From NCBI RefSeq assembly GCF_044647545.1, contig NZ_CP172818.1: DNA of 64,000 nucleotides, one strand, 5' to 3'. Below the pieces are notes generated by a model. That model saw only the letters and a program-made list of their open reading frames with translations. It had not been told where the DNA came from and ran no database searches. The translations under genes were made by a program, and so were the position numbers. This DNA comes from Escherichia coli. GTDB taxonomy: Bacteria > Pseudomonadota > Gammaproteobacteria > Enterobacterales > Enterobacteriaceae. Positions 2,916-62,635 of the stretch are shown here, piece after piece (position 1 is the stretch's first letter; every line of letters starts with the position of its first letter).

Positions 2916-3764
2916 ATGAACGGCTTACTTCGTATCCGTCAGCGTTACCAGGGGCTTGCCCAGAGTGATAAAAAACTGGCGGATTATCTGCTGCTACAAC
3001 CTGATACGGCGCGCCATTTAAGCTCTCAGCAACTGGCCAACGAAGCCGGAGTCAGTCAGTCCAGCGTCGTGAAGTTCGCGCAAAAACTCGGCTATAAAGG
3101 TTTTCCGGCACTTAAGTTGGCGTTGAGTGAAGCGCTGGCAAGCCAGCCGGAATCTCCCTCCGTGCCCATTCATAACCAAATCCGCGGTGATGATCCGTTA
3201 CGGCTGGTCGGCGAAAAATTGATTAAAGAAAATACTGCCGCCATGTACGCAACGCTAAACGTTAATAGTGAAGAGAAGCTGCATGAGTGCGTGGCAATGT
3301 TGCGCTCTGCGCGGCGGATAATTCTGACCGGTATTGGCGCTTCGGGTCTGGTGGCGCAAAACTTTGCCTGGAAGCTGATGAAGATTGGCTTCAATGCTGC
3401 CGCAGTGCGCGATATGCATGCGCTACTCGCTACAGTACAGGCGTCGTCCCCTGACGATCTGTTATTAGCCATTTCCTACACCGGTGTACGGCGCGAGTTA
3501 AACCTGGCGGCAGATGAGATGCTGCGAGTGGGCGGAAAAGTGCTGGCGATTACCGGCTTTACTCCCAATGCCCTGCAACAGCGTGCTTCTCATTGCCTGT
3601 ATACCATTGCCGAAGAACAAGCGACAAACAGTGCTTCAATCTCTGCTTGCCACGCGCAGGGAATGTTAACGGATTTGCTGTTCATTGCGCTGATTCAGCA
3701 GGATCTGGAACTGGCACCAGAACGTATTCGTCATAGTGAAGCGCTGGTGAAAAAACTGGTCTGA
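2916..3764 (+). CDS. yfhH: RpiR/MurR-family transcriptional regulator (HTH plus SIS domain)
   Basis: Track ORF 2844..3764; internal Met at 2916 gives 282 aa; N-terminal HTH region and SIS sugar-phosphate-binding region. Confidence 0.8.
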   Translation: MNGLLRIRQRYQGLAQSDKKLADYLLLQPDTARHLSSQQLANEAGVSQSSVVKFAQKLGYKGFPALKLALSEALASQPESPSVPIHNQIRGDDPLRLVGEKLIKENTAAMYATLNVNSEEKLHECVAMLRSARRIILTGIGASGLVAQNFAWKLMKIGFNAAAVRDMHALLATVQASSPDDLLLAISYTGVRRELNLAADEMLRVGGKVLAITGFTPNALQQRASHCLYTIAEEQATNSASISACHAQGMLTDLLFIALIQQDLELAPERIRHSEALVKKLV

Positions 3765-5156: not shown

Positions 5157-5887
5157 TAGCCACGCGCTTCCAGCATCAAACGCTTCATTTCTGCCACCGC
5201 ATCTTTCAGTCCGGTCATCACTGCACGACCAATAATGGCATGACCGATATTCAGTTCATGCATCTCAGGGATGGCGGCAATGGCTTTCACGTTGTGATAG
5301 GTCAGACCGTGACCAGCGTTAACTTTCAGACCGAGACTAGCGGCAAAGGTCGCGGCTTTGGCGATACGCGCCAGCTCTTGCGCCTGTTCGGCGTCAGTTT
5401 TGGCATCAGCATAGCAACCGGTGTGGATCTCGATAAACGGTGCGCCAACCTCTGCCGCAGCTTTGATCTGCTCTTCATCGGCGTCGATAAACAGAGAAAC
5501 CTGGATCCCGGCCTCCGCCAGATGTTTGCAGGCATCGCGCATTTTTTCACGCTGTCCTGCGACGTCCAGGCCGCCTTCGGTTGTTACTTCCTGACGCTTT
5601 TCCGGTACCAGACAGCAAAAATGTGGCTTCGTCTCAACGGCGATCGCCAGCATCTCTTCGGTCACCGCCATCTCCAGATTCATGCGGGTATCCAGCGTCT
5701 GACGCAGGATGCGCACATCGCGGTCGGTAATGTGGCGGCGATCTTCACGTAAATGCACGGTAATGCCGTCCGCTCCCGCCTGCTCGGCAATAAACGCCGC
5801 CTGCACCGGATCCGGGTAAGCAGTACCGCGTGCGTTACGCAGCGTTGCAATATGGTCAATGTTGACGCCTAACAGTAATTCAGCCAT
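5156..5887 (-). CDS. pdxJ: Pyridoxine 5'-phosphate synthase
   Basis: Track ORF 5156..5902; product starting [20 protein letters not shown] gives 243 aa. Confidence 0.92.
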
Positions 5888-22507: not shown

Positions 22508-22713
22508 GCTTTTCTCCACCAGCGCTGCGCGAAGCGCGCAGATTACCCGAAGTGCGCGCGGTTCGCCATGATTTCGTACCAAAGCCTACGACTATCATAC
22601 CTATTGAATAAAACAGATTGTTGTCTGGAACAATGTCCCCGATAATATGTAACATATTAGAAACATACCGGCGTCGTTGCCGATAAGTCTCCTTACTCAT
22701 CCCGAGGTTAGTT

Positions 22714-59371: not shown

Positions 59372-59734
59372 GGGGCTGATTCTGGATTCGACGGGATTTG
59401 CGAAACCCAAGGTGCATGCCGAGGGGCGGTTGGCCTCGTAAAAAGCCGCAAAAAATAGTCGCAAACGACGAAAACTACGCTTTAGCAGCTTAATAACCTG
59501 CTTAGAGCCCTCTCTCCCTAGCCTCCGCTCTTAGGACGGGGATCAAGAGAGGTCAAACCCAAAAGAGATCGCGTGGAAGCCCTGCCTGGGGTTGAAGCGT
59601 TAAAACTTAATCAGGCTAGTTTGTTAGTGGCGTGTCCGTCCGCAGCTGGCAAGCGAATGTAAAGACTGACTAAGCATGTAGTACCGAGGACGTAGGAATT
59701 TCGGACGCGGGTTCAACTCCCGCCAGCTCCACCA
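59372..59734 (+). ncRNA. ssrA: Transfer-messenger RNA (tmRNA)
   Basis: 363 nt from GGGGCTGATTCTGGATTCGACGGG to GGGTTCAACTCCCGCCAGCTCCACCA; internal frame GCAAACGACGAAAACTACGCTTTAGCAGCTTAA encodes tag ANDENYALAA; TATACT -10-like hexamer upstream. Confidence 0.97.
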
Positions 59735-59781
59735 AAATTCTCCATCGGTGATTACCAGAGTCATCCGATGAAGTCCTAAGA

Positions 59782-59813
59782 GCCCGCACGGCGCAAGCCC
59801 TGCGGGCTTTTTT
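59782..59813 (+). terminator. Rho-independent terminator after ssrA
   Basis: Stem AAGCCC / GGGCTT with 3-nt loop (within a larger GCCCGCA / TGCGGGC repeat) followed by TTTTT. Confidence 0.65.
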
Positions 59814-59868
59814 GTGCCCTCAATTTGTCCCGCGAAGTCCGAAGAGAACTAATTAAATCCGAACCTTT

Positions 59869-59919
59869 TAGGCCCATTGATAGGCCCAACGAAAAGCTCT
59901 ATTGTTTACGTTGGGCCTA
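59869..59919 (+). promoter_or_regulatory. Repeat cluster upstream of intA (candidate Int/regulator binding sites)
   Basis: Two direct copies of TAGGCCCA (59869, 59881) and a perfect 10-bp inverted repeat TAGGCCCAAC...GTTGGGCCTA (59881..59890 and 59910..59919), 19-57 bp upstream of intA ATG. Confidence 0.4.
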
Positions 59920-59937
59920 AACGCAGGGAGACTCCCC

Positions 59938-61179
59938 ATGGCAAGAAAAACCAAGCCGTTAACTGATACGGAAATCAAAGCCGCCAAACCTAAAGATGCC
60001 GATTACCAGCTTTATGACGGTGACGGGCTTACTCTGTTAATCAAGTCCAGTGGCAGTAAGCTTTGGCAATTCCGTTACTATCGGCCTTTGACCAAGCAGC
60101 GAACCAAACAGAGCTTCGGTGCCTATCCTGCCGTCTCGCTTTCTGATGCACGTAAACTCAGAGCCGAATCTAAAGTTTTATTGGCGAAAGACATTGATCC
60201 TCAGGAACATCAGAAAGAACAGGTGAGGAATTCTCAAGAGGCCAAAACCAATACCTTCTTGTTAGTTGCCGAGCGTTGGTGGAATGTGAAGAAAACCAGC
60301 GTAACAGAGGACTATGCCGACGATATCTGGCGCTCGCTTGAGAGAGATATTTTCCCGGCAATCGGTGATATCAGTATCACTGAGATTAAGGCTCATACTC
60401 TGGTTAAAGCAGTTCAGCCGGTTCAGGCCAGAGGTGCATTAGAGACTGTTCGCCGCCTTTGTCAGCGTATTAACGAAGTCATGATTTATGCGCAGAACAC
60501 AGGCCTGATTGATGCTGTTCCTAGTGTAAATATCGGAAAAGCTTTCGAGAAACCGCAAAAGAAAAACATGCCAAGCATCCGGCCGGATCAACTTCCGCAG
60601 CTAATGCACACCATGCGTACGGCAAGTATCAGCATGTCCACAAGATGCCTGTTCATGTGGCAACTTCTAACCATCACCCGCCCTGCCGAAGCTGCTGAGG
60701 CTCGATGGGATGAGATCGATTTCAATGCTAGCGAATGGAAAATTCCTGCAGCTCGAATGAAGATGAACCGGGACCATACGGTTCCACTATCTGATGGGGC
60801 TCTTGCTATTCTGGAAATGATGAAGCCTCTCAGTGGTGGCCGAGAATTTATCTTTCCTAGCCGTATCAAGCCCAACCAACCAATGAATAGCCAAACAGTG
60901 AATGCAGCACTCAAGCGTGCTGGCTTAGGAGGTGTACTTGTTTCACACGGCTTGCGTTCTATCGCCAGTACGGCACTCAATGAGGAAGGATTTCCACCTG
61001 ATGTCATTGAAGCAGCGCTTGCTCATGTAGACAAAAATGAGGTGCGTCGCGCTTATAACCGCAGTGATTATCTTGAGCAACGTCGTCCGATGATGCAATG
61101 GTGGGCTGATCTCGTAAAAGCAGCAGATAGTGGTAGCATCGTTTTAACTCATTTGAGCAAAATTCGTCTTGTCGGATAA
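59938..61179 (+). CDS. intA: Tyrosine-type prophage integrase
   Basis: Track ORF 59902..61179; ATG at 59938 preceded by GGGAG gives 413 aa; catalytic-region motifs HGLRS and RAYNRSDY. Confidence 0.92.
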   Translation: MARKTKPLTDTEIKAAKPKDADYQLYDGDGLTLLIKSSGSKLWQFRYYRPLTKQRTKQSFGAYPAVSLSDARKLRAESKVLLAKDIDPQEHQKEQVRNSQEAKTNTFLLVAERWWNVKKTSVTEDYADDIWRSLERDIFPAIGDISITEIKAHTLVKAVQPVQARGALETVRRLCQRINEVMIYAQNTGLIDAVPSVNIGKAFEKPQKKNMPSIRPDQLPQLMHTMRTASISMSTRCLFMWQLLTITRPAEAAEARWDEIDFNASEWKIPAARMKMNRDHTVPLSDGALAILEMMKPLSGGREFIFPSRIKPNQPMNSQTVNAALKRAGLGGVLVSHGLRSIASTALNEEGFPPDVIEAALAHVDKNEVRRAYNRSDYLEQRRPMMQWWADLVKAADSGSIVLTHLSKIRLVG

Positions 61180-62422: not shown

Positions 62423-62635
62423 ATGAACAATCGATCGGCCGTTAGAATACTACGGTTACCAGCGGTTATCCAAAAAACAGGTATGGCACGGGCCACCATC
62501 TATGACTGGTTGAACCCCAAATCACCACGATACGATGCCACCTTTCCCAAAAAGCGAATGCTCGGCGTGAAATCTGTCGGATGGATTGAGGCCGAGATTG
62601 ATGAGTGGTTATCACAACGCTGTAAACTTATTTGA
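62423..62635 (+). CDS. alpA: AlpA-family prophage transcriptional regulator / excisionase-like protein
   Basis: Track ORF 70 aa beginning MNNRSAVRILRLPAVIQKTGMARATIYDW; GAGG ribosome-binding site upstream. Confidence 0.85.
   Translation: MNNRSAVRILRLPAVIQKTGMARATIYDWLNPKSPRYDATFPKKRMLGVKSVGWIEAEIDEWLSQRCKLI

What the first reader, a model, noticed from the sequence alone, without database searches (positions are those of the whole stretch)
59869..59919. Direct and inverted TAGGCCCA repeats immediately upstream of intA
Two direct copies of TAGGCCCA and a perfect 10-bp inverted repeat flank a 19-bp spacer just before the intA ribosome-binding site. This arrangement is typical of integrase arm-type or repressor binding sites controlling int expression.
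Basis: seen in the sequence. Interest (0 to 1): 0.35.

Follow-up and report, generated by a model that had tools for sequence, protein, structure and literature searches.

The report
Integrase arm-type sites overlapping intA promoter
The three TAGGCCCA copies just before the intA gene of the E. coli K-12 CP4-57 prophage are most likely accessory ("arm-type") docking sites for the prophage's own integrase, laid out as in satellite phage P4 and sitting on the likely intA promoter; this is a well-supported but ordinary feature of this kind of element.

Summary
TAGGCCCA occurs at 59869-76(+), 59881-88(+) and 59912-19(-). A perfect 10-bp inverted repeat flanks a 19-nt spacer, 19 nt before the intA ATG (59938). 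These are the only three copies in the 64-kb window.

The window is E. coli K-12 smpB-ssrA followed by the left end (attL) of prophage CP4-57.

The repeats are best read as the three int-proximal (P') arm-type sites of integrase IntA:
- Phage P4's GenBank record annotates the same layout as "attP arm sequence repeats".
- Two further copies lie about 60 bp inside the other prophage end (attR).
- In about 150 related islands the word changes in all copies at once: GGCCCA, GGCACC or GGTACC.
- The word class tracks the integrase's N-terminal arm-binding domain. It does not track AlpA, the rest of Int or the host genus.

A sigma-70-like promoter (TTGATA-17-TATTGT) is interleaved with the sites, and its key positions are invariant. 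Int autorepression, as reported for P4 and KplE1, is therefore likely but untested.

Caveats:
- One intact recombinant (L164) is discordant.
- The far-arm words of the GGTACC class do not match.
- Sites and domain are physically adjacent.
- No binding or transcription-start data exist.

Verdict: new member of a known kind, modest interest.

The parts
59372..59734 (+). ssrA (tmRNA) gene. Its 3' end is the integration target of CP4-57.
   Evidence: ARAGORN; Rfam RF00023, 292.8 bits.
59716..59735 (+). attL core region (ACTCCCGCCAGCTCCACCAA), approximate. It is shared with attR, which lacks one C and one T.
   Evidence: Comparison of window 59700-59740 with attR at L001 about 22682-22701. The core is conserved in the alignment of right-end arms.
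59778..59815 (+). Intrinsic terminator of ssrA, supplied by the prophage left arm.
   Evidence: Inverted repeat I2 plus a T-run.
59869..59876 (+). P'1: first direct copy of the arm-type word TAGGCCCA (with flank: TTTTAGGCCCA). It lies just upstream of the -35-like hexamer.
   Evidence: Invariant within class A and changed in concert to TAGGCACC in class B.
59877..59882 (+). -35-like hexamer TTGATA of the putative intA promoter, bridging P'1 and P'2.
   Evidence: Consensus scan, 9/12 match with a 17-nt spacer. TTG is invariant in both classes. No transcription-start data were found.
59881..59890 (+). P'2: second direct copy (TAGGCCCAAC), the left arm of the inverted repeat. It lies between -35 and -10.
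59900..59905 (+). -10-like hexamer TATTGT in the centre of the palindrome.
   Evidence: Across 21 unique variants the T, A and final T are invariant while the middle positions vary: TATTGT, TATGGT, TAACAT, TATAGT, TATTAT.
59910..59919 (-). P'3: inverted copy (GTTGGGCCTA on the + strand). It covers the predicted transcription start.
   Evidence: It changes in concert with P'1 and P'2.
59927..59930 (+). Shine-Dalgarno GGAG of intA.
   Evidence: Read from the sequence; 7 nt before the ATG.
59938..61179 (+). intA, a P4-family tyrosine integrase of 413 aa.
   Evidence: Pfam Phage_integrase, Phage_int_M and Arm-DNA-bind_3. Annotated as intA in K-12 records.
59959..60222 (+). Codons for the N-terminal arm-type DNA-binding domain (residues 8-95). 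This is the proposed reader of the TAGGCCCA words.
   Evidence: PF13356, E = 3.8e-24. PDB homologues 3ju0 and 3jtz/3rmp. It is the only part of Int that is structured by repeat class. AlphaFold2 model, pLDDT 90.9.
62423..62635 (+). alpA, a Vis-like excision/regulatory protein of the same element. It is a partner in excision but is not supported as the binder of these repeats.
   Evidence: PF05930. AlpA type does not segregate with repeat class.

Best explanation
The three TAGGCCCA copies are the int-proximal (P') arm-type binding sites of the CP4-57 attachment site.

Proposed mechanism, in four steps:
1. IntA is a heterobivalent P4-family tyrosine integrase. Its catalytic and core-binding domains act at the ssrA 3'-end core. 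Its N-terminal Arm-DNA-bind_3 domain (residues about 8-95) docks on the TAGGCCCA words.
2. There are five such words. Two tandem copies (12-bp period) plus one inverted copy lie between the core and intA; this is the feature found here. Two further tandem copies lie about 60 bp inside the other prophage end, outside the window at MG1655 about 2,777,889-2,777,908.
3. With DNA bending (an IHF-like site is conserved in the far arm) and the excision factor AlpA, Int molecules bridge arm and core sites. This builds the recombination complex for integration and excision.
4. The three P' sites straddle the -35, the spacer/-10 and the +1 of the likely intA promoter. Their occupancy by IntA should therefore also shut off intA transcription, giving negative autoregulation as reported for P4 Int and KplE1 IntS.

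Shown here: the anatomy, the homology of layout to P4, the presence of copies on both arms, the concerted change of the word with the arm-binding domain, and the conservation pattern of the promoter-like hexamers.

Inferred: actual Int binding, the transcription start, and autorepression.
For: 1. Same architecture as P4, where the record itself annotates the repeats. NC_001609 carries 'attP arm sequence repeat' features. Two are tandem 12-bp units (3965-3954, 3953-3942). An inverted unit follows 16 nt later, at the int start (3926-3915). Two more tandem units lie 53 bp from the core in the other arm (4174-4151). CP4-57 has two tandem 12-bp-period copies, then an inverted copy 19 nt later, 19 nt before the ATG. 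Two tandem copies lie about 60 bp left of the attR core.

2. IntA carries the Arm-DNA-bind_3 domain (PF13356, E = 3.8e-24). The domain is homologous to the solved arm-binding domains 3ju0 and 3jtz/3rmp.

3. The word changes in concert in every copy. Among 80 Enterobacterales loci the layout is kept and the word is TAGGCCCA(AC) in 35 loci and TAGGCACC(TC) in 33. In 4 loci it is (T)AGGTACC, present in five copies.

4. Within a class the words are invariant, and variation sits in the spacer.

5. The class follows the arm-binding domain. Residues 1-100 are about 70% identical between classes A and B. The core-binding domain is 92-95% identical, and the catalytic domain is 84-90% identical to both references, with mixing. 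In IMG/VR contigs, 36 modules are A/A and 38 are B/B.

6. The class does not follow AlpA. Near-identical AlpA types occur with both words: L023 vs L038, L065 vs L063, L006/13/22 vs L054. Many loci have no alpA within 6 kb.

7. The class does not follow the host. Both classes occur in Escherichia, Citrobacter, Providencia and Morganella.

8. The far arm co-varies for classes A and B.
- Class A: NH-21 has TAGGCCCAACGATAGGCCCAAT. The contig holding L091 and L116 is also A/A.
- Class B: EC1515 has TAGGCACCCTCTTAGGCACC. L033 and its counterpart L104 are also B/B.

9. Promoter. TTGATA-17-TATTGT is a 9/12 consensus match. TTG of the -35 and T, A and final T of the -10 are invariant across 21 unique variants, while other spacer positions vary.

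10. Precedent. KplE1 intS and P4 int promoters overlap arm sites and are repressed by Int (PMC2951348).
Against: - No binding, footprint or transcription-start data exist for CP4-57 in what I could search.
- The sites abut the codons of the arm-binding domain (20-70 bp away, and under 300 bp in the excised circle). Co-segregation could therefore partly reflect linkage.
- One intact natural recombinant, L164, has class B words with a class A domain.
- In the two class C islands whose right end is visible (L067, L068), the far-arm words are TAGGCCCA/TAGGTCCC or TTGGGCCCA rather than GGTACC.
- K-12's own far-arm copies are imperfect: TAGGACCA and TGGGACCA.
- Older genetics, recalled from memory (Trempy/Kirby 1994), report that AlpA raises IntA synthesis. 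An AlpA-responsive element must therefore lie somewhere near this promoter.
Confidence: 0.82

Rival explanations
1. The repeats are binding sites for AlpA, the Vis-like excisionase/regulator. AlpA would activate or repress intA and direct excision through them.
For: AlpA belongs to the Phage_AlpA/Vis family. It is described as the intA regulator. From memory, P4 Vis binds two boxes between int and the attP core (Cali 2004). The location fits.
Against: Near-identical AlpA proteins accompany different words, and very different AlpA proteins (47-90% identity), or none within 6 kb, accompany the same word. Copies of the word also sit in the far arm in the P4 arm-repeat layout. Other conserved boxes (AAGTCC/AATCC motifs, 59762-59863) are better candidates for AlpA.
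Confidence: 0.07
2. The inverted repeat acts as an RNA hairpin in the intA leader or in ssrA read-through RNA. It would control translation, stability or termination.
For: The RNA would fold stably (-28.8 kcal/mol, z = -3.0). The class A to class B change is compensatory in the two arms.
Against: - The conserved -10-like hexamer sits in the loop, so a transcript from that promoter would lack the left arm.
- There is no T-run after the stem and no Rfam match.
- The third copy (P'1) and the far-arm copies change in concert, although they are direct repeats with no pairing partner.
Confidence: 0.04
3. The repeats are the operator of a host or other prophage repressor, or of a nucleoid protein, unrelated to recombination.
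For: The dyad symmetry over a promoter resembles a classical operator.
Against: Both word classes occur in the same host genera and species, so a host factor cannot explain the class switch. Cargo genes differ among islands that share a word. The word also recurs next to the attR core.
Confidence: 0.04
4. The cluster is a chance arrangement or a neutral relic of a local duplication.
For: About 3.5% of shuffled windows contain some 8-mer triple within 60 bp.
Against: The architecture is conserved in more than 150 loci from many genera. The words are invariant, the spacers vary, and the words are replaced in concert.
Confidence: 0.01

Closest known systems
Satellite phage P4 attP arm sequence repeats and Pint (Pierson & Kahn 1987, as annotated in NC_001609; Piazzolla 2006 as cited in PMC2951348)
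   Same: The layout matches: two tandem 12-bp-period direct copies plus one inverted copy between the core and the int start, and two tandem copies 50-60 bp from the core in the other arm. The integrase is homologous (Arm-DNA-bind_3; N-terminal region 40% identical). int is transcribed away from the tRNA-like target.
   Different: The word differs (P4 TTGGGGGCAT vs TAGGCCCAAC). The target differs (leuX vs ssrA). The spacer is 16 vs 19 nt. In P4 the inverted copy overlaps the annotated start codon. Binding and autoregulation were tested in P4, not here.
KplE1 (CPS-53) intS promoter overlapping attL arm-type sites (PMC2951348)
   Same: The int promoter is embedded in P' arm sites next to a tRNA gene. 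One arm site overlaps the -10. Int and the directionality factor repress it.
   Different: The integrase subfamily, site sequence and site number differ. The directionality factor is TorI, not an AlpA/Vis protein.
Lambda Int arm-type sites (P1, P2, P'1-P'3)
   Same: Five accessory sites are read by an N-terminal domain that is distinct from the core-binding domain. IHF-type bends lie between arm and core (established knowledge; IHF-like site).
   Different: In lambda, int is transcribed toward att and its promoters are remote, so the arm sites do not overlap the int promoter. From memory, lambda and HK022 share arm specificity and differ in core specificity. Here the core is shared and the arm specificity differs.
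Arm-type binding domains of the HPI and HAI7 integrases (PDB 3jtz/3rmp, 3ju0)
   Same: These domains are homologous to IntA residues 8-108 (E = 1e-13 to 5e-18). The 3jtz/3rmp chains (one identical sequence) are named 'Integrase | CP4-like integrase' in the PDB listing.
   Different: They belong to different islands and tRNA targets. I could not read the paper, so their DNA sites were not compared.

Membership tests
Arm-type sites of a heterobivalent tyrosine integrase | The integrase has a separate N-terminal arm-binding domain. | tested here: met
   PF13356 Arm-DNA-bind_3 at residues 8-95, E = 3.8e-24. PDB 3ju0 and 3jtz homologues. AlphaFold2 model of residues 1-105, pLDDT 90.9.
Arm-type sites of a heterobivalent tyrosine integrase | A repeated word, different from the core, is present on both arms of attP. 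| tested here: met
   P' arm: 3 copies. P arm: 2 copies at L001 22604-22623, imperfect. P-arm copies are perfect in NH-21, EC1515, L014, L033 and L074, and in L092, L093, L095, L096 and L101; in L103 the second word is TAGGCACT.
Arm-type sites of a heterobivalent tyrosine integrase | The site sequence co-varies with the arm-binding domain, not with other proteins. | tested here: met
   Classes A and B: 68 genome loci and 74 IMG/VR modules are concordant, 1 is discordant (L164). There is no association with AlpA, with the catalytic domain or with the host. Caveats: physical linkage, and the class C far-arm words do not match.
Arm-type sites of a heterobivalent tyrosine integrase | A bending-protein (IHF) site lies between the arm sites and the core. 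| tested here: inconclusive
   A one-mismatch IHF-like site is conserved in position in the P arm. None was found in the P' arm.
Arm-type sites of a heterobivalent tyrosine integrase | The Int N-terminal domain binds the sites directly, and the sites are needed for recombination. | not testable with these tools
   This needs gel-shift or footprinting and excision assays.
P4-type attP architecture | Two tandem 12-bp-period copies plus an inverted copy lie before int, and two tandem copies lie in the other arm. | tested here: met
   NC_001609 features and sequence compared with window 59869-59919 and L001 22604-22623.
P4-type attP architecture | The word is the same as in P4 (TTGGGGGCAT). | tested here: not met
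   The word here is TAGGCCCAAC. The layout is homologous but the specificity differs.
Int-autoregulated int promoter overlapping attL (P4 Pint, KplE1 PintS) | A functional sigma-70 promoter lies inside the arm-site cluster. | tested here: inconclusive
   9/12 consensus match. The conservation pattern is TTG....TAnnnT. No transcription-start data were found.
Int-autoregulated int promoter overlapping attL (P4 Pint, KplE1 PintS) | Int supplied in trans represses the promoter. | not testable with these tools
   Precedents only.
AlpA/Vis (directionality factor) binding boxes | The site specificity follows the directionality-factor protein. | tested here: not met
   The same AlpA type occurs with different words, and different or absent AlpA occurs with the same word.
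Intrinsic terminator or known structured RNA | A GC-rich hairpin followed by a U-run, or a match to an Rfam family. | tested here: not met
   There is no T-run after 59919. No Rfam hit covers 59860-59940.

The most novel reading that the evidence does not exclude
The arm-site word and the arm-binding domain may form an exchangeable specificity module. It has diversified into at least three classes (GGCCCA, GGCACC, GGTACC). Further words (GGTAYAC, GGCACTC) were seen only as DNA arms, with no matching integrase domain identified. The islands share the same core and the same target (ssrA). That diversification could make co-resident or tandem ssrA islands orthogonal: each integrase would assemble only on its own arms, so tandem islands excise independently instead of as a composite.

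Anecdotal support: the one intact tandem pair seen is mixed-class (L091, class A then class B). The two same-class tandems (L014 A then A; L033/L104 B then B) have lost the downstream island's arm sites by deletion.
Probability: 0.2. Interest if true: 0.55.

Novelty: new member of a known kind. Interest (0 to 1): 0.3.

Why it matters
This result gives CP4-57, a much-used model for prophage excision, biofilm and tmRNA physiology, an explicit map of its recombination site. That map comprises five arm-type sites, the core, an IHF-like site and the likely intA promoter. None of these is annotated in the MG1655 record.

It predicts that IntA limits its own synthesis. This bears on how AlpA, Hha or H-NS trigger excision.

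The class A/B/C word switch, tied to about 15 residues of the arm-binding domain, offers a natural specificity code for P4-family integrases. That code could be tested directly and used to design orthogonal integration systems. The general principle has been known since P4 and lambda.

Tried and rejected
- Literature. No open-access paper in the library describes IntA or AlpA binding sites in CP4-57 or prints the repeat sequence. Kirby/Trempy 1994 and Szwagierczak 2009 are not held, so I cannot exclude that the 1994 papers mentioned the repeats.
- Transcription-start data. Cappable-seq supplements hold nothing at these coordinates, and the Rend-seq paper has no held supplements.
- Right ends that gave nothing. 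E. coli M11 (class B) has lost its right end to an IS3 element. The H53-type match is a remnant without arm repeats. The Klebsiella 'phage' record Kp4865-2 is an unverified prophage cut-out with no usable far arm.
- Pairing attempt. IMG/VR far-arm contigs could not be paired with their int ends, because the contigs do not contain them.
- Loose pattern. The first IMG/VR pattern scan was dominated by chance matches.
- Explanations rejected. The RNA-hairpin, Rfam, terminator and chance explanations were examined and rejected.
- IHF. No IHF consensus site was found in the P' arm.

Full report
**Context**

The window is the E. coli K-12 smpB-ssrA region followed by the left end of the cryptic P4-like prophage CP4-57.
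- ssrA (tmRNA) lies at 59372-59734 (Rfam).
- intA is at 59938-61179 and alpA at 62423-62635.
- Identical sequence is found in K-12 strains.
- In MG1655 coordinates the finding lies at about 2,756,090-2,756,140. That record annotates only 'cryptic prophage CP4-57' and intA there.

**The observation**

It is correct in every detail.
- TAGGCCCA occurs at 59869-76 and 59881-88 on the + strand, with a 12-bp period, and at 59912-19 on the - strand.
- TAGGCCCAAC / GTTGGGCCTA is a perfect 10-bp inverted repeat around 19 nt. It extends to 15-nt arms with one mismatch.
- The right arm ends 7 nt before the GGAG and 18 nt before the ATG.
- These are the only three copies in 64 kb, against 1.4 expected.
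- It is the only triple of any 8-mer within 60 bp in the window. Only 7 of 200 shuffles give any such cluster.

**Comparison within E. coli**

About 1,050 of 5,426 complete E. coli genomes carry this ssrA-proximal arm. Aligning K-12 with strains M11 and EC1515 gave the key result. The layout is identical, but all three copies read TAGGCACC(TC) instead of TAGGCCCA(AC). The complementarity of the inverted pair is therefore kept, and the third, direct copy changes too.

DNA identity between K-12 and M11 runs as follows:
- 100% from the core to 59834;
- a fall exactly at the repeats;
- 53-73% through the first ~85 codons of intA;
- about 80% after that.

At protein level the two integrases are 85% identical, with the differences concentrated in the first ~120 residues.

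**Comparison across Enterobacterales**

Eighty loci encoding IntA relatives (70-97% identity) were retrieved from different species. Printing the 90 nt before each start codon showed the same architecture almost everywhere, in three word classes:
- class A, TAGGCCCA: 35 loci;
- class B, TAGGCACC: 33 loci;
- class C, (T)AGGTACC: five copies each in Pectobacterium, Brenneria and Lonsdalea, and a slightly degenerate set in Serratia bockelmannii.

Within a class the words are invariant, and variation sits in the 19-nt spacer.

A few elements are visibly decaying:
- repeats deleted (L014);
- one unit lost (L045);
- words mutated together with a stop codon in int (L027);
- frameshifted int genes (L183, L216, L220, L221).

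**Which protein reads the word?**

- *Domain structure.* IntA has an Arm-DNA-bind_3 domain at residues 8-95, a central domain and the catalytic domain. The arm domain is homologous to the solved arm-binding domains of the HAI7 and HPI integrases.
- *Integrase.* Word class segregates with the type of the N-terminal 100 residues, which are about 70% identical between classes A and B. The core-binding domain is 92-95% identical between classes. The catalytic domain is 84-90% identical to both references, and some loci are closer to the 'wrong' reference.
- *AlpA.* It does not segregate. Near-identical AlpA types occur with both words, AlpA identity within one class ranges from 47 to 90%, and many loci have no alpA within 6 kb.
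- *Host.* Both classes occur within Escherichia, Citrobacter, Providencia and Morganella, which excludes a host factor.
- *IMG/VR contigs.* 36 A/A and 38 B/B modules were found. One intact discordant recombinant, L164, has class B words and a class A domain, with the junction near codons 5-8.
- *Diagnostic residues.* Class-diagnostic residues are 9-11, 14-15, 24, 32, 42, 48, 54-60 and 73-74. They fall in the first helix and the four strands of a confident model. That they contact DNA is inference.

**The other arm**

Arm-type sites should occur on both sides of the core in the excised form.
- K-12: TTTTAGGACCAACAATGGGACCAAAATG lies about 60 bp inside attR, as two tandem, slightly imperfect copies.
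- Strain NH-21 (class A int, with a different sequence between core and repeats): the right end carries TAGGCCCAACGATAGGCCCAAT.
- Strain EC1515 (class B int): the right end carries TAGGCACCCTCTTAGGCACC.
- A class B mini-island (L033, and its counterpart L104) and a class A island (L116/L091) are also concordant.

An alignment of ten right-end arms shows that only four elements are conserved: the two words, an AAAGTTGAA box, an IHF-like site and the core.

The exception is class C. In L067 and L068 the visible right-end words are TAGGCCCA/TAGGTCCC or TTGGGCCCA, not GGTACC. Right-end arms with GGTAYAC words exist in tandem arrays, but their integrases are not visible. This remains unresolved. 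The possible causes are relaxed specificity, chimeric islands, or an error in my assignment of island limits.

**Comparison with P4**

The P4 GenBank record annotates six 'attP arm sequence repeats'. In int orientation these are:
- two tandem 12-bp units in one arm;
- the core;
- two tandem 12-bp units;
- 16 nt of spacer;
- an inverted unit at the int start;
- one further unit (3621-3632) inside the int coding sequence, which I did not compare with CP4-57.

Apart from that sixth unit, this is the CP4-57 layout with a different word (TTGGGGGCAT). The finding is therefore the CP4-57 counterpart of a feature described for P4.

**Promoter**

A TTGATA-17-TATTGT match lies inside the cluster.
- The -35 bridges copies 1 and 2.
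- The -10 is in the centre of the palindrome.
- The predicted start falls in copy 3.

Across 21 unique variants the TTG of the -35 and the T, A and final T of the -10 never vary, while neighbouring positions do.

For KplE1 intS, and for P4 int as cited there, promoters that overlap arm sites are repressed by Int and by the directionality factor. I infer the same for intA. I found no transcription-start data.

**Rivals**

- *AlpA boxes:* disfavoured by the lack of co-variation.
- *RNA hairpin:* the fold would be stable (-28.8 kcal/mol). However, the likely promoter starts inside it, there is no U-run or Rfam match, and the unpaired direct copies co-vary.
- *Host or other repressor:* excluded by both classes occurring in one species.
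- *Chance:* excluded by conservation.

**Limits**

- Everything about binding and regulation is inferred.
- The sites and the arm domain are adjacent, so linkage contributes to the association.
- L164 shows that the link can break.
- I could not read the 1994 papers on slpA/alpA, so prior description of these repeats cannot be excluded.

**Verdict**

This is a real, functional-looking element: the P' arm-type sites of IntA interleaved with the intA promoter. It is a new member of a known kind. The modest new insight is that arm word and arm domain have diversified together while the core and target stayed the same.

Noticed in passing
window 59762-59785, 59835-59843, 59855-59863: A box just right of the core is conserved across elements. 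CP4-57 has CATCCGATGAAGTCCTAAGAGCCC and P4 has CATCCGAGAAAGTCCAAATATCCC at the equivalent place. NH-21 (ATTCCAAAGCAATCCAAGA) and Brenneria (GAAGTCCACTAAGCCC) have similar boxes. Two more AAGTCCGAA / AAATCCGAA copies lie nearer the arm sites. These are candidate AlpA/Vis boxes, or signals for tmRNA 3' processing.
   Followed up: partly
L164 8284-9600 (IMG/VR UViG_2740892417_000010): An intact 413-aa integrase has a class A arm-binding domain behind class B repeats, with the recombination junction near codons 5-8. It is a natural mismatch that could test the specificity model.
   Followed up: partly
L014 5750-5990; L033 8154-8290 (counterpart L104); L091 14231-14500; L096: Tandem ssrA islands were seen. 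The same-class neighbours (A then A in L014, B then B in L033) have lost the downstream island's arm sites by deletion. The mixed A-then-B pair in L091 is intact. The sample is too small to conclude anything.
   Followed up: no
L073 about 5720-5830; L112 11107; L175 6377; L166; L202: Right-end arms carry further words: TTGGTATAC/TAGGTATAC and TTGGTACAC/TAGGTACAC. The layout is the same (two copies, AAAGTTGAA box, IHF-like site, core). Their integrases are not in the fetched DNA.
   Followed up: partly
L071 5662-5713 and 5846-5960 (Limnobaculum): A more distant relative (70% identity) has the two-direct-plus-one-inverted layout with the word TGGCACTC, about 290 bp upstream of int. A second cluster of GTCACA/TGTGAC repeats lies directly before the gene.
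   Followed up: no
L001 22604-22623 (MG1655 about 2,777,889-2,777,908; outside the window): K-12's far-arm copies read TAGGACCA and TGGGACCA, not TAGGCCCA. The same arm is at least 99% identical in 482 E. coli genomes. Base 5 of the word therefore seems tolerant, or this prophage has weakened sites.
   Followed up: partly
P arms in alignment A3 (for example L085 20025-20070): An invariant AAAGTTGAA box follows the second far-arm copy, and a positionally conserved IHF-like site (WCAAnnnnTTA) lies about 25 nt before the core. The surrounding sequence is otherwise unalignable.
   Followed up: partly
window 59778-59815: The ssrA transcription terminator lies inside the prophage arm, so the element supplies the 3' end signals of the host tmRNA gene. 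NH-21-type and Brenneria-type arms carry different terminators at the same place.
   Followed up: no
window 59865 (boundary): K-12 and E. coli M11 are 100% identical from the core to 59834, and identity then drops abruptly at the first repeat. This looks like a recombination junction at the edge of the 'arm sites plus arm domain' block.
   Followed up: yes
L027, L117, L183, L216, L220, L221: Decaying copies: point-mutated repeat words occur together with stop codons or frameshifts in int.
   Followed up: no
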